From NCBI GenBank assembly GCA_964471165.1, contig CAYYEX010000002.1, positions 124,965 to 188,964 of the forward strand: DNA of 64,000 nucleotides. Reading direction: 5' to 3'. The position numbers and the translations under genes are program-made. Source of the DNA: an uncultured Candidatus Saccharibacteria bacterium. Lineage in GTDB: Bacteria > Patescibacteriota > Minisyncoccia > Phycocordibacterales > UBA2100. Below the pieces are notes generated by a model that did not search any database, was not told the DNA's origin, and saw only the letters and a program-made list of their open reading frames with translations. This document shows positions 3,999 through 62,700 of the stretch, piece by piece; within the stretch, counting starts at the first letter, position 1, and each line of letters starts with the position of its first letter.

Positions 3999-6900
3999 GT
4001 GCGAATTGCTGATGCGCCCGAGAGGGCGCATCATTGCGTTATGCGCCGTAAGGACATCGGGGATTTTCTTAATGCTGAACGCAAAATTTCTCCACTCACT
4101 GCGTTTTCACTCCTTGTCGTAGCAGGCTTCGTTGCCGGCTCTTTGCAGCTCGTTGCACCGCGCACCACCGACACGATTGCAATCACCGCGACAGCTGTGC
4201 AGGCGCGCGAGTCGATGACTGCGGCAACAGCTGCTGCCCCGGCGACCACAAATTCTCTCAATACCAGTTTTCCGAAAGATTGTGAGACGGCGATTAAAGG
4301 TGCGCTCGGAAAGAGCCAAAGTAACGGTACGTACTCGGTAGACAAAGGGAGTTCGGGGAAAATGGATTCCTGTTTTGCTGCAGTGCTCGCCGACCCAGTT
4401 CGTTCAGTACCGAGCCAAAACCCCGCCGACTATAAATGTGTCGGCCGAAGTGGAAAAGTCACCATTACACCGATACAAGCTTCTTCGGTCATGGACGCGG
4501 ATAAAAGCGTACCGGCGGGCAGCTGCAAGGTGAAGGTTTGTCAGCCGTTTCAGTACATGGAGGGGCAATACATGAAGGTAAATGAAAACTGCAGCGAAGC
4601 GAAACAAATGAAACCGGGCGAGAGTACGACCGGCACACCGGCTATCCCCGAAGGAAAGTTACCGGCCCCATATTCAGTTCCCTCGACACCTACTCCAACA
4701 GGTTCACAAACACCAACACCGAATGCACCGGGAGCTGGAGGAGCGGGCGAAAGTGGGGGAGGTGGTGCACCAGGCTCAACACCCGCAACTCCAGACCCAA
4801 CAAAGCCAAACACCGACGCAGACGAAATTAAAAAAATCCAAATCGGAACTGATGCAGATGGCAAGCCCATTTACGCTGCGGAAGAAGTGGCAAAACCCGA
4901 CGCGGTCGTACCGAAAGGCGATGCAGCAAATATTGGAGCCGGTAGCGGTAGTTGCGAACGCGGCGGCACATGTGCGGGCGACGAGCGCTCACAAACTGCA
5001 CCTGGTACTGCCAGCTGCGAGCGCGGTGGCACCTGCATCGGCGACGAACGTTCTCAAACAAGTACATTCAGCAGCTGCGAACGTGGGGGCACGTGTGCGG
5101 GCGACGACCGCTCACAGCCTGCACCTGCAACGGGCAGCTGCGAACGTGGTGGCACATGCCCTGGTGACGAACGCTCGCAACCTGCCGTGTGGGGCCCTAC
5201 AAATTGCGAACGCGGTGGCACGTGTGCAGGTGACGACCGCTCTGAACCAGCTCGGCTTGAGCCTGCTACACGAGGGTTAAATGGCAGATGGACTAGTGCA
5301 GAAGACGAAATGCGCCAACTCGAAAATCCTACGTTGCGCGACCAACCGACCAATGATGACGATATGCGTCGAGCCGAAAATCCAACACTACGCGATCAAC
5401 CCACAAATGATGATGATATGCGTCGAGCCGAGGATCCGAAATTGCGCGAACCCGCAAAAACAGATGCTCCTTACAGCGATGTAACAGATGCTTCCAATTC
5501 ACCAATTGATTGCGACAGTAAAAGCATGTGCCGCTCCTATCCCAAGGAGCAAAAAGATATTGAGACACTACAGAAGGCGGGATTCACCTGCACAAGCGAC
5601 CAGGGGAGTTCGGCATACTGCTACAAAGATAATTCGAAAGGCCCCGCAGTTACTGATCCAAAAACGAAACCAGGTGGTTGTGAACGCGGCGGCACCTGTC
5701 CAGGCGACGACCGCTCCAAGCCGGCTCCGACGCCAGCACCAGCTCCAGCACCGGCGCCTGGGCCGGGTGGTGGTGGAGGCGGAAGCGGTGGTGGTGGAAC
5801 CGGGGGAGGAGGCTCAGGTGGTGGAGCAGGGGGACTTGGCTCGCTCCTGAGTGGTCTCATGAAGGGCATGGGAGGAGGCTCACCAGCACAGCAGCCACAG
5901 CAACCGGCACAGCAATGCCAAACCGACCCACAGGCATATGCTCGGCAGCAAGAGCAGTACAACTATCAGTTGCAACAGTACAACTACCAGCTCCAGCAAT
6001 ACAACTATCAACAGCAGCAAAATTCTCAGTACGGCCAATCGTCGTATGCAAGCGCACCTGTGCCACCACGACCGTGTTCACAGGGTGGAGCAGGGCAGTG
6101 CCCTGCAATGCCCGCCCAGCCAAATGCGTCGGCCTGTCCGAACGGCACGTGGCGACAAATGACCACCACGCTTGGTTCAGGTTCGGTCTGTCCAGTTTGG
6201 CAGTGTGTAGTCGGAACAACGCCAACAGCACAACTCACGTGTCAGCCGGGAGTCGCAGAAGACGGAACGAAGGTCACACTTACATATTCATGCACAAACT
6301 CGCTTATGAGCACGGGCTACGGATTTGTAACAGGTGGGGCAACATCGGGTTCAACAAGCACGATAATTGTTAATCCACCGGCAAATGCAGGGGGAATAAA
6401 TTATGCGCTCAAGTGTGAGAATGGAAGCGCTTCGGCTGGCGCACAGTGTCAGGTACAAATCGCAAAAGTATCGATTTCCCTAAAGGCCTCACCAGAGGTA
6501 ACGCGAATCGGTGACAAGGCGCTCATTGGGTGGGTAACAACAGGCATGGAATCATGTGTAGTTTCGAGCCCCGACCAGCAAGACTTTACGGACCGCAATG
6601 CCAACAACAAGCGCACATCCGGTATTGCAACCACATCCCCAATCACCAGTACGTCTGACTTCTATCTCAACTGCGTTACCCTCACGGGTAGTACGCGCGA
6701 GGAAATGGTAACAGTGGAGGCGTACCAGCCGGGCACGGTTACCACCTCGATTGAAAACCGTACAAATGTGCAACGGGGACAGGTAGCAACTATTCAGTGG
6801 AGCTTCCCAGATGCTCCTGATGTTTCTGCGGTTGCGCTCTGGCTCTTCAGTGTCGAAGACCAAAAAAGTGTTGCACTCATTGTGGGACACAAAGCAAAGA

Positions 6901-7121
6901 CGGGTAGCTACACCTGGAATCTACCGGAAGAGAGCGAGCCATGTAATTCGTCGTCATCACTTGTTTGCGGAACCGATTTGATTCCAGGACGCACATACCA
7001 AGTTCTTGCGTCGCTCTACACGCCGCCGAATGCCGGACTCGGAGAGTTTGGCGATTCAAGCCTCCCTGCGCCACAGTTTCTGGATAGCCCAACAACGAGG
7101 AGTTTCAAGATTCAGCAGTAA
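3999..7121 (+). CDS. large membrane-anchored/secreted repeat protein (8x Cys-containing CERGGTCxGD[DE]RS repeats, Pro/Gly linkers, Q/N/Y-rich low-complexity segment)
   Basis: N-terminal TM (LTAFSLLVVAGFVAGSLQLVAP); alternative start ATG 4041; tandem 14-aa Cys repeats; 2.5x NPTLRDQPTNDDDMRRAE; GGGGSGGGG linker; QQYNYQLQQYNYQ region; no recognisable enzymatic motif. Confidence 0.7.
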   Translation: MRIADAPERAHHCVMRRKDIGDFLNAERKISPLTAFSLLVVAGFVAGSLQLVAPRTTDTIAITATAVQARESMTAATAAAPATTNSLNTSFPKDCETAIKGALGKSQSNGTYSVDKGSSGKMDSCFAAVLADPVRSVPSQNPADYKCVGRSGKVTITPIQASSVMDADKSVPAGSCKVKVCQPFQYMEGQYMKVNENCSEAKQMKPGESTTGTPAIPEGKLPAPYSVPSTPTPTGSQTPTPNAPGAGGAGESGGGGAPGSTPATPDPTKPNTDADEIKKIQIGTDADGKPIYAAEEVAKPDAVVPKGDAANIGAGSGSCERGGTCAGDERSQTAPGTASCERGGTCIGDERSQTSTFSSCERGGTCAGDDRSQPAPATGSCERGGTCPGDERSQPAVWGPTNCERGGTCAGDDRSEPARLEPATRGLNGRWTSAEDEMRQLENPTLRDQPTNDDDMRRAENPTLRDQPTNDDDMRRAEDPKLREPAKTDAPYSDVTDASNSPIDCDSKSMCRSYPKEQKDIETLQKAGFTCTSDQGSSAYCYKDNSKGPAVTDPKTKPGGCERGGTCPGDDRSKPAPTPAPAPAPAPGPGGGGGGSGGGGTGGGGSGGGAGGLGSLLSGLMKGMGGGSPAQQPQQPAQQCQTDPQAYARQQEQYNYQLQQYNYQLQQYNYQQQQNSQYGQSSYASAPVPPRPCSQGGAGQCPAMPAQPNASACPNGTWRQMTTTLGSGSVCPVWQCVVGTTPTAQLTCQPGVAEDGTKVTLTYSCTNSLMSTGYGFVTGGATSGSTSTIIVNPPANAGGINYALKCENGSASAGAQCQVQIAKVSISLKASPEVTRIGDKALIGWVTTGMESCVVSSPDQQDFTDRNANNKRTSGIATTSPITSTSDFYLNCVTLTGSTREEMVTVEAYQPGTVTTSIENRTNVQRGQVATIQWSFPDAPDVSAVALWLFSVEDQKSVALIVGHKAKTGSYTWNLPEESEPCNSSSSLVCGTDLIPGRTYQVLASLYTPPNAGLGEFGDSSLPAPQFLDSPTTRSFKIQQ
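4945..5460 (+). repeat. intragenic tandem repeats (eight ~57-60 nt units encoding SCERGGTCxGDxRSQ, then 2.5 units of a 54-nt NPTLRDQPTNDDDMRRAE repeat)
   Basis: repeated tgcgaacg(c/t)gg(c/t)ggcac(a/c/g)tg... units visible directly in the DNA. Confidence 0.75.
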
Positions 7122-26140: not shown

Positions 26141-26282
26141 CGGGTAGCCGAATCCAAGAGTCGTCCTTGGAAACTGATGGCTCATTATTGTGAGCTCTTG
26201 TTTACTCCTGTAATCTATCCAATTGGATGATTTACAGGAGTTCTGTGCAGAGTAATAACCAATTGCAATTTCATTCATAAAT

Positions 26283-26936
26283 GTGAATACTGGCCCCATG
26301 CGAACCAATACCCTTATCGTGTTCGAGGGCATCGACGGCTCCGGCAAGGCTACGCAGGCAAAAAAGCTGGTAGACCGATTGAAAAAGCAGGGCCACCAGG
26401 TAACTGCCACGCATTCGCCCCGCTACGAAAAACCGATTGGGAAGTTGGTGCTCGACGCCCTTCATGGAAAGCATGGCGACTTTCGCAATCTCTCACCCTA
26501 CTTTTCTGGTCTTCCATACTTGCTGGATTTTGCGACCATGAAAGATTCACTCCTCTCTGCACTTAAAATCGGCATGGTGGTAGCCGATCGATATGTGCCC
26601 TCCACGCTCGCATTCCACGGCGCCAAGCTCGAGGGTCCGGCGCGCAATGCATATATAAAGTTCGTACAGGAGCTTATGTACGAAGAGGCGGGGCTTCCAA
26701 AACCGCACCTCATTATTTATTTGAAAATGACAGAGAAGTTGGCAAAGGAGCATCTCGATGATTCCGGTAAACCGCTCGACCAGCACGAGCGCGACACCGA
26801 CTACCAGAGAAAAGTCGCCGAGGTATACGGAAAATTGGCACGCGATAAAAAGGTATGGCGCACGGTGGAGTGCAAAGAGGGGGAGTCGCCAAACGAAATC
26901 CATGAGCGTGTCTGGAACACTATTTCAGCAAGCTAG
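26283..26936 (+). CDS. tmk: thymidylate (dTMP) kinase
   Basis: P-loop LIVFEGIDGSGKATQAKKL, DRY-like DRYVPSTLAF, lid region. Confidence 0.85.
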   Translation: MNTGPMRTNTLIVFEGIDGSGKATQAKKLVDRLKKQGHQVTATHSPRYEKPIGKLVLDALHGKHGDFRNLSPYFSGLPYLLDFATMKDSLLSALKIGMVVADRYVPSTLAFHGAKLEGPARNAYIKFVQELMYEEAGLPKPHLIIYLKMTEKLAKEHLDDSGKPLDQHERDTDYQRKVAEVYGKLARDKKVWRTVECKEGESPNEIHERVWNTISAS

Positions 26937-58925: not shown

Positions 58926-58960
58926 AAAGCAAAAGTCGCCCTTTGGGCGACTTTTGCTTT
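58926..58960. terminator. terminator-like hairpin after TPR gene
   Basis: AGCAAAAGTCGCCC-TTTG-GGCGACTTTTGCTTT. Confidence 0.6.
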
Positions 58961-59023
58961 ACAAGCGTTTACACGTCCACTTCGTACATTCACAGATGCC
59001 TTTACGCACTCTGTGTTCACTCA

Positions 59024-59058
59024 CATATTAAGATAACGGTAGTTATATTAATATGTAT
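59024..59058. repeat. 35-bp site R1: CATATTAAGATAAC-N10-TTAATATGTAT (8-bp inverted arms CATATTAA/TTAATATG)
   Basis: direct-repeat partner of 59623-59657; ends 2 nt before the stop codon of the 59061-59624 gene. Confidence 0.7.
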
Positions 59059-59060
59059 TC

Positions 59061-59624
59061 CTACTTGAGACTGAATTTCGTTCGAAGGTGAGAATCTCTC
59101 TCGATCGTATCAGCAATTATGTACAGAACCTCTTTCCCCAAGCCGTAGTCGACTTTTAACAAGGTAATCAATTCTTCACAGTCATATGGAAAAACCCAAA
59201 CCGAATCCTGCAATCTTTCGAAACCAATTTCCACGAGAGTTTTTCTGAGAAGGTGTCGGTGGCCCTTTCTCGCTTCAGCGATGTCGAAAATCACCATTCG
59301 CCACCTTCCATCCCATTTGGCCGGCTTACGTACCACAAAGCTTTTCCGGACTAGGAAAGCACTCCCTTTCGGTGTAATTCGTAAACGCCTTCCGCTGGCA
59401 CCCTCTTCGTAAGAAATCAGGCCCTTCTTCAATAATCGCTGCGAGGCAGTCTCGATAGATTCTTTAGACCTATTTGAATACCGTTTACCGAGGAGTTGAA
59501 GCACGTTTGGCGCTAAGATGGCCAGAGTGAGGACTCCTCCAAGCTCAAGAGAGGAGAGAATCGCATTCTGAAGTTTGGTACGCCTTTCACGCCTCTTCAG
59601 ATTACCCTCCATTGTGGTTCCCAT
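59061..59624 (-). CDS. winged-helix DNA-binding domain fused to a Cas2/VapD-like C-terminal domain (possible PaaX-like regulator)
   Basis: N-terminal wHTH (LLKKGLISYEEGASGRRLRITPKGSAFL); C-terminal WRMVIFDIAEARKGHRHLLRKTLVEIGFERLQDSVWVFPYD parallels the Cas2 signature LVLVTYDIS...RRLAKLLLEYGYRIQQSVFEC. Confidence 0.6.
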   Translation of the reverse strand: MGTTMEGNLKRRERRTKLQNAILSSLELGGVLTLAILAPNVLQLLGKRYSNRSKESIETASQRLLKKGLISYEEGASGRRLRITPKGSAFLVRKSFVVRKPAKWDGRWRMVIFDIAEARKGHRHLLRKTLVEIGFERLQDSVWVFPYDCEELITLLKVDYGLGKEVLYIIADTIERDSHLRTKFSLK

Positions 59625-59657
59625 ATTAAGATAACTATAGCACTGTTAATATGTATC
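59623..59657. repeat. 35-bp site R2: CATATTAAGATAAC-N10-TTAATATGTAT
   Basis: identical 14-nt and 11-nt flanks to R1 with a different 10-nt centre; begins at the start codon of the wHTH gene and lies ~50 bp upstream of the divergent LCAT-like gene. Confidence 0.7.
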
Positions 59658-59708
59658 GGGAGGGGATAGCTTGATGAAGGGCTCATGTGTTGGCATACTG
59701 TCCGGGAT

Positions 59709-62700
59709 ATGACTTCTGCACGCTTTGTGCTCGTCTCTCTCCTCGGCGCACTCCTGGTTCCGTATGCTGCATCTGCTGCGACATATGGTGATATTGGTCA
59801 CGACATCTCGTTCCCGGGAAGTGGCTCTATGGCAGCGATGCAGAACCTGGGCAATGGCAACTTTACCCACGGGGCCGCAGTAACCGGCATGGATGTGCGC
59901 ATTTCCACCGCCGCAGGACAAATGATTAAGGCGTTTATTGTTGAATACGCAATTGATGGTGGACAAACCGCACAATACGGGCCTGTTGATTACGTCACGA
60001 CAGTTGACGGGGAACAGGTATATCACTTTGAACTGCCAGCTCCGTTTACGCCTCGCGCCGACCGATGTTACAACCTCCTGTTCTACCAGTTCCTCGATCC
60101 CTCGGGGACAACGTTCTATGGGTGGTCGAATGAAAAATATGTGGCTTCACACGCAGGGTGCGCATTTGGGCGAAACTCAGATGATGTTGCTTACCTAAAC
60201 CAAAACCCTTCACTCAATTATCCCGGGCTTGTCGATTATTCGTTTGTAATTCATGACGACGGTTTTATTCCGCCCCCACAAGAGCCGGTTGTTCCTCTGG
60301 GCAAAACATACGGAAGTCTCGATGCGGATTTTACTTTTGGGGCACAGGGAACGATGGCCGCGGTGCAGAATCTCGGAAACGGAACGTTTTCTGAGGGAAA
60401 TACAGTAACGGGTGTTGATGTGCGTGTGGCGGCAGTGCCGGGTAATATCATCAAAGCTTCGGTTCGTGAGTTTGACTCTGTGGGCAATCAACTAAACGAG
60501 TACTTCCCGCCCGATTATCTGCCAACGGTAGAGGGTGACCACGTGTACAATTTTGATTTTTCAACTACGTTTACTCCCGACCCATCTCATTGCTACCAGC
60601 TGTATTCCTATCAGGCTAACCTTTCGCCATACAGCAGTACGTACTACGGACATTCGAATGATGTGTATGTGGCTTCAAGTACCGGCTGTGTATTTGGACA
60701 GAATAATGATGACCGGGCACATCTCACCCAAAACCCCAGCTTGAACGCTGACGGATATATTGACTACGCATTCCGCATCCACACAAACGGAGCAACCTCT
60801 ACGCCCCCTGCAACCACGACTCCTGCGTGCACGGAGAATTGCTATTCCAACGTGCTGTTCCTGCCCGGTATCAAAGCGAGTCGTCTGTACCATCCACGCG
60901 GACCGAGCTGTGCGGTCGGCGACTGCGAGGATCAGGTGTGGATACCGAACGCGAACAGTGACGTTGAAGACATGTTCCTAAATCCAGATGGCACAAGCGT
61001 GCGACGAGACATTTATACAAAAGATATTCTCGACAAATATCCGGGAGGAGATGTTTACGACTCTTTCTCAAAGTTTATGAATCAAATGGTTGCTTCGAGC
61101 ACCATAAATAAATGGGATTCTGTGCCATACGACTGGCGACTCGATCTTGAGCATGTGGTGAATAATGGCACCTCCATCGACGGACATATTTCATACGTAG
61201 ACAATGCAACATCTTCGTACGTGATTAACAAACTCGTACAGCTCGCGGAAAGTTCAAAAACAGAGAAGGTGACAATTGTTGCCCATTCAAATGGAGGATT
61301 ATTCGCTAAGGTATTGATGAAGAAACTCGACGAGATGGGAAAGGGCGACCTTGTAGATAAAGTCGTATTTGTTGGGGTGCCGCAGTTGGGGACGCCAAAA
61401 GCGATTGCGACATTCCTGCACGGATACGATGAATCCATCCTGCGCGGGGCGGTGCTCAATGAAGCGACCGCGCGAACGTTCGCTGAAAACGCTGCGGGTG
61501 CGTACACGCTTCTGCCATCTAATGCGTACGTCGCAAAAGTCTCGACGCCGACGGTTGAGTTTTCCTCAACTTCAACAGCAGCCCAGACGCTCTTCAGTCA
61601 ATATGGTGCGTCTATTCAGTCGTACCAGACACTGCGGGCATTTCTGCTTGGTTTTGATGGCCGACAGAAGCCCGCGACGAGCGACGTAGATTCACCAAAC
61701 ATTCTGAACTTTGAACTTCTTAACCGAGCGGAGCAACTTCACAGTGAACTTGATTCATGGACACCACCTGCGGGAGTGAAGTTGTATGAGGTGGCGGGGG
61801 TAGGACTGGAAACGCCTTCAGGGATTAAGTACATTGATAGCTGCAAGTTCCATTGCATGTTTGGGGGGCCCAGTCTTTCATATGAGCCAAGCGTTGTATT
61901 TGAGGGCGACGGAACGGTCGTTGAAGCAAGTGCCCACTCGGGAGATGGTGATCAATACTATTTCAATATTAATCGGTACAACGATACAAATGGTGACCTG
62001 CCGTCGGTCGAGCACGGCACAATCATGAGCCCCCACGCAGTCCTCGATTTTGTCGACTGGGTAATTCGTAATGAGCCGATTCGTCCACTCTCAAATACTA
62101 TTTCTCCGACCGCGCCCAGCTTCGCTGGCCAGAAGCGTATTGCACTTCGCATTCACTCACCGGTCTCTCTCGATTTGTACGATGGCCAGGGGCGGCACAC
62201 GGGGGTGGTCCATGCTGCGCTGCCAGACGGCACCCCGATACGATATGTTGAAAACAATATTCCTGGTGCTCACTACGATGAGTTTGGAGAAGTAAAGTAC
62301 GCATTTACGGACGGTTCGATTCCCGTGCATGTTGTGCTTGATGGGCAGGCATCCGGTTTCGTTACCTACGACATTGACGAAATGGTTGGCAACGATGTGA
62401 TAACGACAACATCATTCGTGAATATCCCAGTCGCAACAAGTTCTGTTATTACGATGGACATTACTGATAATATTTCCACAGCGTCTGACCTCCATATCGA
62501 CGAGGATGGTGACGGCCACGCGGAAGCAATTCTAGAACCGGGCGGGATAGTGTTGTTCGATGTAACCGCGCCCACAACCATAGCTTCTACGACAGGACCA
62601 CTCGGTGCTCATAACTGGTATCTTGGTACAACAACCGTTCAGTTGAGTGCGACTGATAATGACGGAGGCTCGGGAGTAAGTGGTACAGTCTTTTCTCTCG

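What the first reader, a model, noticed from the sequence alone, without database searches (positions are those of the whole stretch)
59024..59657. wHTH/Cas2-VapD-like fusion gene exactly bracketed by two 35-bp palindrome-armed direct repeats
The 187-aa minus-strand gene (59061-59624) combines an N-terminal winged helix with a C-terminal segment carrying the Cas2/VapD endoribonuclease signature (hydrophobic-VIFDI with Asp, then RxxLRKxLxxxGFxRLQxSVW). The same 35-bp sequence, CATATTAAGATAAC-N10-TTAATATGTAT, has 8-bp inverted arms and sits 2 nt after the stop codon and again exactly at the start codon. The two copies differ only in the central 10 nt. Gene plus one site is a 599-bp unit, consistent with an inserted cassette or a regulator flanked by its own operators. 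There is no cas1 or CRISPR array. The upstream site also lies in the promoter of the divergent giant LCAT-like gene, suggesting a regulator/effector pair or an addiction-type module.
Basis: partly seen in the sequence, partly recalled or inferred. Interest (0 to 1): 0.78.

Follow-up and report, generated by a model that had tools for sequence, protein, structure and literature searches.

The report
Mini-PaaX repressor bracketed by its operators
A small DNA-binding protein gene of an ultra-small (Patescibacteria/CPR) bacterium is flanked on both sides by copies of a 36-bp symmetric site that is very probably its own binding site, and the same layout recurs in dozens of distant relatives, each with its own site sequence.

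Summary
Two 35-38-bp direct repeats lie 598 bp apart: one 2 nt past the stop codon, one over the ATG of a 187-aa minus-strand gene. There is no other copy in 64 kb.

The protein is a winged helix fused to the Cas2-like PaaX_M domain (Pfam E=5e-21). It has no PaaX C-terminal domain and scores below the Cas2 cut-offs. This "mini-PaaX" family is large and, where sources name the organism, from Patescibacteria.

The repeats are not cassette boundaries. Orthologous loci keep the synteny. In 64 of 76 homologous loci the upstream flank matches its own downstream flank, against 8 of 380 cross-locus controls.

The sites share one anatomy:
- a family-wide core, C-K-R-Y-M-G, on the dyad;
- an A/T block at positions 10-12;
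- a locus-specific 6-bp half-site at positions 13-18, close to E. coli PaaX's TGATTC-N27-GAATCA.

The upstream site overlaps a promoter that looks leaderless. Arm sequence covaries with the recognition helix and wing rather than with the Cas2-like domain.

Best reading: an autorepressor with two cognate operators bracketing its gene. The cassette, addiction-module and LCAT-effector ideas are not supported. The role of the downstream operator is unknown. I rate it a new variant of a known kind, of moderate interest.

The parts
59061..59624 (-). [quoted passage not shown] No PaaX C-terminal domain.
   Evidence: ORF. Pfam PF20803 E=5e-21; Cas2 PF09827 scores 18.5 bits, below the 23.8 cut-off. TIGR02277 scores 34 bits against a cut-off of 264. 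PDB 8A39 PaaX: E=1.8e-4 by profile and top Foldseek hit. AF2 model mean pLDDT 74.7, with block means of 86-92 over the C-terminal domain. The Met-Gly start is conserved.
59620..59655 (.). A 36-bp dyad with its axis at 59637|59638 and core CTATAG at 59635-59640. The specific half-sites at positions 13-18 are TATGGG and TATGTA; the left half-site contains the start codon.
   Evidence: Family-wide site anatomy. In the largest group of homologous loci (24 of 64) the dyad axis lies 10-19 nt before the ATG, as it does here.
59022..59057 (.). A 36-bp near-perfect palindrome with its axis at 59039|59040 and core CTACCG on the gene strand (59037-59042). Half-sites are TATGTG and TATGTA. It begins 3-4 nt after the stop codon.
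   Evidence: Folds as a hairpin: RNA -11.1 kcal/mol, z -2.3; DNA z -4.1. A matching downstream site is present in 64 of 76 homologous loci, whatever the orientation of the next gene.
59634..59639 (-). Candidate -10 box TATAGT on the gene strand, 9 nt before the ATG and at the centre of the upstream operator. It implies a leaderless or nearly leaderless mRNA.
   Evidence: Read from the sequence. In the family, a TATAAT-like hexamer ends 4-9 nt before the ATG in 49 of 76 loci (background 23 %), with a peak at 6 nt. A Shine-Dalgarno-like motif occurs in only 5 of 76. The generic promoter scan did not call this box, so it is an inference.
58929..58957 (.). G+C-rich hairpin GCAAAAGTCGCCC-TTT-GGGCGACTTTTGC between the convergent TPR-like gene (ends 58895) and the focal gene. 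It looks like a bidirectional terminator and would place the downstream operator inside the 3' UTR.
   Evidence: Read from the sequence. The terminator scan did not call it because the T tract is short, so it is an inference.
59671..59699 (+). Context, not part of the unit. A promoter-like element TTGATG-17 nt-CATACT for the divergent LCAT-like gene, whose likely true start is the ATG at 59709. It starts 15 bp beyond the end of R2.
   Evidence: Conserved, apart from spacer substitutions, between the window and L003. The element is below the threshold of the consensus scan, so it is an inference.

Best explanation
The gene encodes a two-domain relative of the repressor PaaX: a winged helix plus a Cas2-fold dimerisation domain, without the C-terminal effector domain.

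Proposed mechanism (inferred unless marked otherwise):
1. The protein forms a dimer through the Cas2-like domain.
2. The dimer binds a roughly 36-bp dyad. Its two recognition helices and wings read a lineage-specific 6-bp half-site 13-18 bp either side of the dyad (TATGTR in this genome).
3. Conserved parts of the protein contact a family-wide central core (C-K-R-Y-M-G) and an A/T block at positions 10-12.
4. One operator (R2) lies on the gene's own promoter and start codon, where the mRNA is probably leaderless. Binding there would shut off transcription, giving negative autoregulation as PaaX does at its Px promoter.
5. A second, more perfect copy (R1) lies just past the stop codon. Its role is the least certain step. 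The likeliest options are an auxiliary operator that cooperates with R2, for example through a loop of about 600 bp, or a bound roadblock that insulates the unit from neighbouring transcription.

What is shown here: the domain assignment, the site anatomy, its pairing at nearly every homologous locus, its overlap with promoter-like elements, and covariation between site and wHTH. What is inferred: that binding occurs, the stoichiometry, repression, and the function of the downstream site.
For: Protein:
- PaaX_M E=5e-21.
- PaaX 8A39 is the only significant solved relative by sequence (E=1.8e-4) and the top fold match.
- Secondary structure is H-H-H-beta-hairpin followed by beta-alpha-beta-beta-alpha-beta.

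Sites:
- Only two copies in the window, 0 expected by chance.
- Orthologues L003 and L007 have their own upstream and downstream pairs in conserved synteny.
- The own-locus upstream/downstream match reaches score 15 or more in 64 of 76 loci, against 8 of 380 cross-locus pairs.

Anatomy:
- Dyad complementarity is 0.91-0.95 at positions 2-4, 0.5-0.8 at 5-9 and 0.8-1.0 at 10-17.
- Positions 13-18 have family-wide information of only 0.16-0.42 bits, but the four half-sites of one locus agree at 0.89-0.98.
- This segmented pattern, and the fact that R2 does not fold (z -0.5), fit duplex recognition by a symmetric protein rather than a stem-loop.

Geometry: it resembles the E. coli PaaX operator TGATTC-N27-GAATCA, and PaaX represses its own Px promoter by steric hindrance (PMC9493321).

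Promoter overlap:
- A -10-like box ends 4-9 nt before the ATG in 49 of 76 loci, and a Shine-Dalgarno-like motif occurs in 5 of 76.
- The upstream dyad axis lies mostly 15-19 nt or 35-49 nt before the ATG.

Covariation: arm similarity correlates with the recognition helix and wing (partial Spearman 0.255 controlling for the Cas2-like domain; 0 of 500 permutations reach it). The reverse partial correlation is only 0.087.
Against: - No binding, expression or structural data exist for any member, so every functional step is inferred.
- The covariation test is confounded by shared ancestry.
- The generic promoter scan did not call the proposed -10 box in the window.
- The U-D distance shows no helical phasing: 470 of 2000 jittered nulls reach the observed value. 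This gives no support to phased looping.
- The protein lacks an obvious effector domain, so what would relieve repression is unknown.
- A regulator whose only detectable targets flank its own gene has no obvious physiological output. Extra sites exist within 3 kb in only 4 of 64 loci.
- The source genome could not be scanned as a whole.
- About a dozen invariant polar residues in the Cas2-like domain suggest that it does more than dimerise.
Confidence: 0.65

Rival explanations
1. The two repeats are the boundaries of a mobile or recently inserted cassette: recombination or transposition ends, analogous to attC, dif-module or IS200/IS605 hairpin ends. The Cas2-like domain might act as the nuclease.
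For: The gene plus its sites forms a self-contained unit found in many different contexts; no neighbour family recurs in more than 7 of 76 loci. The sites are palindromic with a conserved central core, which superficially resembles a crossover region. The Cas2-type Asp and other polar residues are invariant.
Against: Synteny is conserved between loci whose proteins are only 55-60 % identical, and both sites are present in each. Subfamilies also share neighbours. The window holds a single copy and no paralog. No recombinase or transposase Pfam hit is on record in the flanking roughly 7.8-10 kb. In many loci the upstream site has been remodelled to carry the gene's own -10 box, as expected of a resident regulatory site. 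No empty site or target-site duplication was seen.
Confidence: 0.06
2. The repeats act as nucleic-acid hairpins, as a terminator, an mRNA-stabilising 3' stem-loop or a cruciform, rather than as binding sites for a sequence-specific protein. Their similarity within a locus would then be incidental or due to gene conversion.
For: Downstream copies are often perfect palindromes of 32-52 bp. The window's R1 folds better than shuffled controls: RNA -11.1 kcal/mol, z -2.3; DNA z -4.1. G.T mismatches slightly outnumber A.C ones, 90 to 64.
Against: Symmetry is segmented: positions 5-9 next to the would-be loop are the least complementary, which is the opposite of a stem. R2 and many other upstream copies do not fold (z -0.5). 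The G.T excess is the same in the upstream copies (86 to 66), which in the leaderless layout lie in promoter DNA. Hairpin function does not require the two copies of a locus to share sequence, yet 64 of 76 do. The core and the A/T block are conserved in sequence across the family, not merely in pairing. A 3' hairpin role for R1 in addition to protein binding is not excluded.
Confidence: 0.1
3. The sites are operators, but for a different, unlinked DNA-binding protein. The mini-PaaX gene would then be merely the regulated or insulated target.
For: No binding data exist. The central core is conserved across very divergent lineages and could be read by a conserved host factor. In four loci a third copy lies next to other genes.
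Against: The sites accompany this gene family in nearly all loci despite changing neighbours. The site geometry is that of the family's characterised member, PaaX. The locus-specific half-sites covary with this protein's recognition helix and wing.
Confidence: 0.1
4. A single-chain toxin-antitoxin-like or addiction module: the wHTH acts as an autoregulating antitoxin-like domain fused to a VapD/Cas2-like endoribonuclease.
For: The Cas2/VapD fold. Weak hits to the first part of Cas2 profiles. Invariant Asp and basic residues. Palindromic autoregulatory operators are typical of type II TA loci (general knowledge).
Against: No partner gene and no conserved neighbour. Stable synteny. The best match by far is the non-catalytic PaaX_M domain. 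VapD is a weaker structural match than PaaX or Cas2. There is no defence-system match beyond partial Cas2 hits.
Confidence: 0.05

Closest known systems
PaaX, the phenylacetyl-CoA-responsive repressor of E. coli and Pseudomonas (PDB 8A39; Pfam PaaX / PaaX_M / PaaX_C; TIGR02277)
   Same: An N-terminal winged helix followed by the Cas2-like middle domain. The operator is built from two 6-bp inverted half-sites separated by a very long spacer: N27 in E. coli and 24 bp here. PaaX autorepresses by occluding its own promoter; here this is inferred from the site's position.
   Different: It is about 190 aa rather than about 310 aa and has no C-terminal effector-binding domain. It scores far below the PaaX equivalog cut-off. 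No paa genes are nearby. It keeps Cas2-type motif residues that E. coli PaaX has lost, namely the FDI Asp and LQxSVW. It has an extra conserved central core in the operator, and a second operator just past its own stop codon.
Cas2 (CRISPR adaptation) and VapD (toxin)
   Same: The ferredoxin-like fold of the C-terminal domain. An Asp at the end of the first strand and a Q-x-S-V-(W/F) motif. Partial profile matches.
   Different: It scores below the curated cut-offs of both Cas2 models. It is fused to a DNA-binding domain. There is no cas1, no CRISPR array and no antitoxin partner. Many members are nevertheless named 'CRISPR-associated endonuclease Cas2' in public annotation.
Repressors with an auxiliary operator inside or beyond the regulated gene (lac O1/O2, gal OE/OI; general knowledge, not tested here)
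   Same: A primary operator at the promoter plus a second cognate site a few hundred base pairs downstream.
   Different: Here the second site brackets the regulator's own monocistronic gene, is usually the better palindrome, and shows no helical phasing with the first. Looping is only a hypothesis.

Membership tests
PaaX family (Pfam PaaX_M-containing regulators) | Central Cas2-like domain PF20803 scoring above the gathering threshold | tested here: met
   75 bits against a cut-off of 24, E=5e-21, residues 102-176. All 120 listed homologues carry PF20803.
PaaX family (Pfam PaaX_M-containing regulators) | [quoted passage not shown] | tested here: met
   The profile match to PaaX 8A39 spans the recognition helix, the wing and the middle domain. 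The model has three helices plus a beta-hairpin. Foldseek's top hit is 8A39. The Pfam N-terminal PaaX model itself gave no hit.
PaaX proper (TIGR02277 equivalog) | C-terminal helical effector domain (PaaX_C) and a score above the equivalog cut-off | tested here: not met
   No PaaX_C hit at E<=1, and the protein ends 11 residues after the PaaX_M match. TIGR02277 scores 34 bits against a cut-off of 264.55.
PaaX proper (TIGR02277 equivalog) | Linkage to paa (phenylacetate catabolism) genes and response to phenylacetyl-CoA | tested here: not met
   The neighbours are an LCAT-like gene, a TPR-like gene, large secreted proteins, FtsK and RecA, with no paa genes. No conserved neighbour exists across 76 loci. 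The ligand response cannot be tested with these tools.
PaaX proper (TIGR02277 equivalog) | Operator of two 6-bp inverted half-sites with a spacer of about 27 bp, and autorepression at its own promoter | tested here: inconclusive
   The geometry is analogous: 6-bp locus-specific half-sites at positions 13-18 from the dyad, 24 bp apart, against TGATTC-N27-GAATCA. The site overlaps promoter-like elements. Binding and repression were not tested.
Cas2 (PF09827 / TIGR01573) | Profile score above the curated cut-off | tested here: not met
   PF09827 scores 18.5 bits against 23.8. TIGR01573 scores 21.8 bits against 24.5. Only the first ~40 profile positions match.
Cas2 (PF09827 / TIGR01573) | Genomic association with cas1 and a CRISPR array | tested here: not met
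   No regularly spaced repeat array in the 64-kb window. No Cas Pfam hits among the genes called in the L001 locus, about 7.8 kb on one side and 10 kb on the other.
Cas2 (PF09827 / TIGR01573) | Ferredoxin-like fold with a conserved Asp at the end of strand 1 | tested here: met
   A beta-alpha-beta-beta-alpha-beta pattern over residues 108-171. Cas2 structures are hit at probability 0.8-0.99. D114 in the VIFDI motif is invariant in 43 sequences. Catalytic activity was not tested.
VapD-type toxin-antitoxin module | An adjacent cognate antitoxin gene in a two-gene operon | tested here: not met
   The gene is monocistronic and bracketed by the two sites. No recurrent neighbour exists.
Mobile gene cassette (integron attC-, dif-module- or IS200/IS605-like) | Variable presence or position among close relatives, multiple copies, and an associated recombinase | tested here: not met
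   The position and both sites are conserved in L001, L003 and L007. The window holds a single copy. No recombinase Pfam hit is on record for the genes called in L001, roughly 8-10 kb each side. The whole genome could not be examined.

The most novel reading that the evidence does not exclude
The Cas2-like domain is not just a dimerisation scaffold. The family keeps the Cas2-type Asp and about a dozen invariant polar residues, and the operator has a family-wide central core (C-K-R-Y-M-G) on the dyad, where a Cas2-like dimer interface with its paired Asp residues might sit if the dimer is centred on the site as assumed here. The protein could therefore be a site-specific DNA-processing or metal- or ligand-sensing factor that acts at the two sites bracketing its own gene. 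That would make it a minimal self-delimiting genetic unit, and a living intermediate between Cas2/VapD nucleases and PaaX-type repressors.
Probability: 0.08. Interest if true: 0.85.

Novelty: new variant of a known kind. Interest (0 to 1): 0.55.

Why it matters
Transcriptional regulation in Patescibacteria (CPR) is almost unexplored experimentally, to my knowledge. This analysis gives a widespread family a concrete and testable operator model: 639 clusters at 50 % identity score E<=1e-30, and many members are mis-named 'Cas2'.

- Each lineage supplies a matched protein and site pair. Dozens of natural specificity variants could be used to derive a recognition code for the PaaX-type winged helix, and to explain how PaaX-type dimers span operators of about 36-39 bp.
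- Keeping a second operator just past the stop codon, whatever the neighbouring genes, is to my knowledge an unusual regulatory layout whose purpose is unknown.
- The family retains Cas2 motif residues that PaaX has lost. That makes it informative about how a nuclease fold was recruited into transcription factors.
- In practical terms, annotation pipelines should stop calling these proteins Cas2.

Tried and rejected
1. Whole-genome search for further copies of the window's site. The pattern ATACATATTAA-N16-TTAATATG was scanned against genome contigs and returned 20 single matches in unrelated taxa, none from Patescibacteria. The source genome is evidently not in that collection, so the regulon question stays open.
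2. Exact-sequence look-up of the 187-aa protein failed because the database call starts at the second ATG. It worked through P0001.
3. A plain X-drop palindrome score under-detected the sites because their inner arms are degenerate. It was replaced by the upstream-versus-downstream match and by dyad profiles.
4. RNA-hairpin reading. The G.T versus A.C mismatch asymmetry is weak and equal in both copies, and R2 does not fold. Rejected as the common property of the two sites.
5. The downstream site as operator of the next gene. Rejected because the next gene is convergent in 31 loci and co-directional in 29.
6. A conserved operon or effector partner, including the LCAT-like gene. None found.
7. 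Helical phasing of the two sites, as a looping signature. None found.
8. Defence and phage libraries gave only weak partial Cas2 hits and generic regulator hits.
9. Literature searches for PaaX / Cas2-like / Patescibacteria, and for CPR / leaderless / palindrome, found no description of this arrangement. The library does not cover all journals, so absence is not proof.
10. The generic promoter and terminator scan did not call the elements I propose. They rest on cross-locus conservation and family statistics.
Full report
**1. The observation**

- R1 is 59024-59058 and R2 is 59622-59656. They share CATATTAAGATAAC and TTAATATGTAT around a 10-nt centre in which 4 positions also agree.
- With up to three mismatches allowed in the 25 specified positions, these are the only sites in the 64-kb window apart from R1's own reverse-strand image. 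No shuffle produced any match.
- The general repeat finder recovers the pair independently: D10, 38 nt, 82 % identity, spacing 598.
- The minus-strand ORF 59061-59624 encodes 187 aa. R1 ends 2 nt before its stop codon, and R2 starts with the complement of its first ATG.
- The public gene call (P0001, 183 aa) uses the second ATG.

**2. The protein**

- Pfam places residues 102-176 in PaaX_M, 'PaaX protein central Cas2-like domain', at 75 bits and E=5e-21. True Cas2 models score below their cut-offs: PF09827 18.5 against 23.8, and TIGR01573 21.8 against 24.5. The PaaX equivalog scores 34 against 264.
- A profile of 43 family members finds one significant solved relative, E. coli PaaX 8A39 (E=1.8e-4), aligned from the recognition helix through the wing into the middle domain.
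- The AlphaFold model has mean pLDDT 74.7, with block means of 86-92 over the C-terminal domain. It shows three helices and a beta-hairpin, then a beta-alpha-beta-beta-alpha-beta unit.
- Foldseek ranks PaaX first, then Rv0674, then many Cas2 structures and VapD.
- The protein stops 11 residues after PaaX_M, so the PaaX C-terminal effector domain is absent.
- Unlike E. coli PaaX, the family keeps Cas2-type motif residues as invariant columns: D114 in VIFDI, R123, Q139, S141, and several more.
- The family is large. There are 661 hits in the word-indexed search, and every hit that a source names by organism is from a Patescibacteria/CPR lineage. Among 50 %-identity representatives, 639 clusters score E<=1e-30, and the best 150 are near-full-length matches in proteins of about 155-260 aa, mostly about 190.
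- Public names are inconsistent: 'CRISPR-associated endonuclease Cas2', 'PaaX', or 'hypothetical'.

**3. The repeats are a property of the family, not of this locus**

The source contig is a 298-kb metagenome assembly (L001).

In the two nearest orthologous loci, L003 (55 % identity) and L007 (60 %), the gene has the same convergent neighbours: a TPR-like gene and a protein of about 1140 aa. Each locus also has its own palindromic site immediately before the ATG and immediately after the stop. The divergent LCAT-like gene is present in L003-L006 but not in L007.

I then fetched 80 further loci from metagenomes (39-52 % identity) and compared flanks.
- In 64 of 76 non-redundant loci, the 100 nt upstream match the region around and after the stop of the same locus with an ungapped score of 15 or more. 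Only 8 of 380 cross-locus pairings do.
- Several of the 12 remaining loci show weaker or more distant pairs.
- The site sequences differ widely between loci but match within a locus.

**4. Anatomy of the site**

Dyad profiles, by distance from the axis:

| Position | Property |
|---|---|
| 1-4 | Conserved across the whole family (Y-M-G-S outward, giving the core C-K-R-Y-M-G). CTATAG in about half the loci; otherwise mostly CGGTCG, CGACCG, CGGCCG or CGATCG |
| 5-9 | Neither conserved nor strongly symmetric |
| 10-12 | A/T only |
| 13-18 | Almost no family-wide conservation (0.16-0.42 bits), but the highest agreement among the four half-sites of one locus (0.89-0.98) |
| 19 and beyond | All signal fades |

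In the window, the specific half-sites are TATGTG and TATGTA in R1, and TATGGG and TATGTA in R2. The odd one out contains the start codon. The cores are CTACCG in R1 and CTATAG in R2.

The site is therefore a dyad of about 36 bp with two 6-bp specificity elements 24 bp apart. The characterised family member, E. coli PaaX, binds TGATTC-N27-GAATCA and represses its own promoter by steric hindrance (PMC9493321).

**5. Relation to the promoter**

- A TATAAT-like hexamer ends 4-9 nt before the ATG in 49 of 76 loci (background 23 %), with a sharp peak at 6 nt. A Shine-Dalgarno-like motif is present in only 5 of 76. The mRNA is therefore probably leaderless.
- The upstream dyad axis is mostly either 15-19 nt before the ATG, so that the site spans roughly -35 to +2, or 35-49 nt before it, so that the site covers the -35 region.
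- In the first layout, the inner right arm of the upstream copy is often replaced by the -10 box (for example L059, L013, L077 and L083). This explains why the upstream copy is usually the poorer palindrome.
- The window belongs to this layout. Its candidate -10 is TATAGT at 59639-59634, 9 nt before the ATG. The generic scan did not call it, so it is an inference.

**6. Protein-bound duplex or hairpin?**

- R1 can fold (RNA -11.1 kcal/mol, z -2.3). R2 cannot (z -0.5).
- Symmetry is lowest next to the centre, where a stem would need it most.
- G.T mismatches exceed A.C ones only slightly, and equally in both copies.
- The core and the A/T block are conserved as sequence, not just as pairing.

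These points favour recognition of duplex DNA by a symmetric protein. An additional 3' hairpin role for the downstream copy is not excluded.

**7. Is the encoded protein the binder?**

Indirect evidence:
- The sites follow the gene through unrelated contexts. No neighbour family occurs in more than 7 of 76 loci.
- The geometry matches PaaX.
- Arm similarity between loci correlates with similarity of the recognition helix and wing segment (Spearman 0.30; partial 0.255 after controlling for the Cas2-like domain; 0 of 500 permutations reach it). The Cas2-like domain adds little (partial 0.087).
- Groups with the same half-site share recognition-helix motifs. For example, ATACGTTA goes with EY(I/V)SSSASKL, and ATACATCA goes with E(I/V)VSSSAS(K/R)L.
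- Shared ancestry confounds this test, so I treat it as supportive only.

**8. The downstream site**

- It is present whether the next gene is convergent (31 loci) or co-directional (29). It is therefore not simply that gene's operator.
- In a 201-aa subfamily it overlaps the last codons and the stop.
- The distance between the two axes has a median of 640 bp and shows no helical phasing.
- Four of 64 loci have a third copy 0.3-1.3 kb upstream, bracketing another ORF or a tRNA or lying in a divergent promoter region. Additional targets are therefore possible.
- The window has none in 64 kb, and the complete source genome was not available.

I consider an auxiliary operator (cooperative binding or looping) or a protein roadblock/insulator the likeliest roles. 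This is the weakest part of the model.

**9. Alternatives**

- A mobile cassette is disfavoured by conserved synteny, the single copy, the absence of a recombinase in the flanking roughly 8-10 kb, and the integration of the promoter into the site.
- A toxin-antitoxin or addiction module is disfavoured because there is no partner gene and because the dominant match is to PaaX_M.
- A regulator/effector pairing with the LCAT-like gene is not general. R2 also ends 15 bp short of the conserved TTGATG-17-CATACT element of that gene (59671-59699).
- The many invariant polar residues of the Cas2-like domain, and the conserved core on the dyad, leave room for a more unusual activity. I give that a probability of about 0.08.

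**10. Verdict**

The cassette, addiction-module and LCAT-effector ideas are not.

The locus is one member of a large Patescibacteria family of two-domain PaaX relatives whose genes are bracketed by two cognate operators, each with lineage-specific half-sites. I found no description of this arrangement in the searchable literature. I rate it a new variant of a known kind, with interest 0.55.

Noticed in passing
window 26204-26241: A 38-nt palindrome, ACTCCTGTAATCTATCCAATTGGATGATTTACAGGAGT (88 % complementary, I9), lies about 40 nt upstream of ORF 26283-26936(+). It looks like the operator of another regulator.
   Followed up: no
window 4950-5730 (inside ORF 3999-7121): Tandem coding repeats with periods of 54 to about 66 nt (D1-D3) lie inside a 1040-aa ORF. 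The encoded protein was not examined.
   Followed up: no
window 59685-59711: The mechanical start of the LCAT-like ORF (59685) lies inside a promoter-like element, TTGATG-17-CATACT at 59671-59699, that is conserved in L003. The likely true start is the ATG at 59709 (MTSARFVLVSLL..., which looks like a signal peptide), only 9 nt after the -10 box. This gene may therefore also be leaderless.
   Followed up: partly
window 59610-59624; P0001: The public gene call for the focal gene starts at the second ATG (183 aa). The conserved Met-Gly start indicates the first ATG (187 aa), which lies inside the operator half-site.
   Followed up: yes
one search hit list (P0006, P0012, P0039, P0057, P0059, P0110, P0111 and others): NCBI and JGI name many family members 'CRISPR-associated endonuclease Cas2', although they are wHTH-PaaX_M proteins. 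The focal protein scores below the Cas2 cut-offs and has no cas1 or CRISPR array nearby. This looks like a systematic mis-annotation.
   Followed up: partly
L032 1939-1975; L044 1000-1039; L079 1672-1699; L070 1989-2024: These loci carry a third copy of their locus-specific site 0.3-1.3 kb upstream of the gene. In L032 it lies between smpB(-) and a 216-aa ORF(+). In L044 a tRNA-Leu lies between it and the upstream site. In L079 it precedes a 292-aa ORF. This hints at small local regulons in some lineages.
   Followed up: partly
L016-L020, L023, L029, L035, L043, L073 (201-aa subfamily): The downstream site overlaps the last ~10 codons and the TAG stop. The C-terminal peptide ...NLPNSNGRKS is therefore encoded by the palindrome itself, so the same bases serve as both coding sequence and operator.
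   Followed up: partly
window 58929-58957: A G+C-rich hairpin, GCAAAAGTCGCCC-TTT-GGGCGACTTTTGC, lies between the convergent TPR-like gene and the focal gene. It looks like a bidirectional terminator, but the consensus scan did not call it.
   Followed up: no
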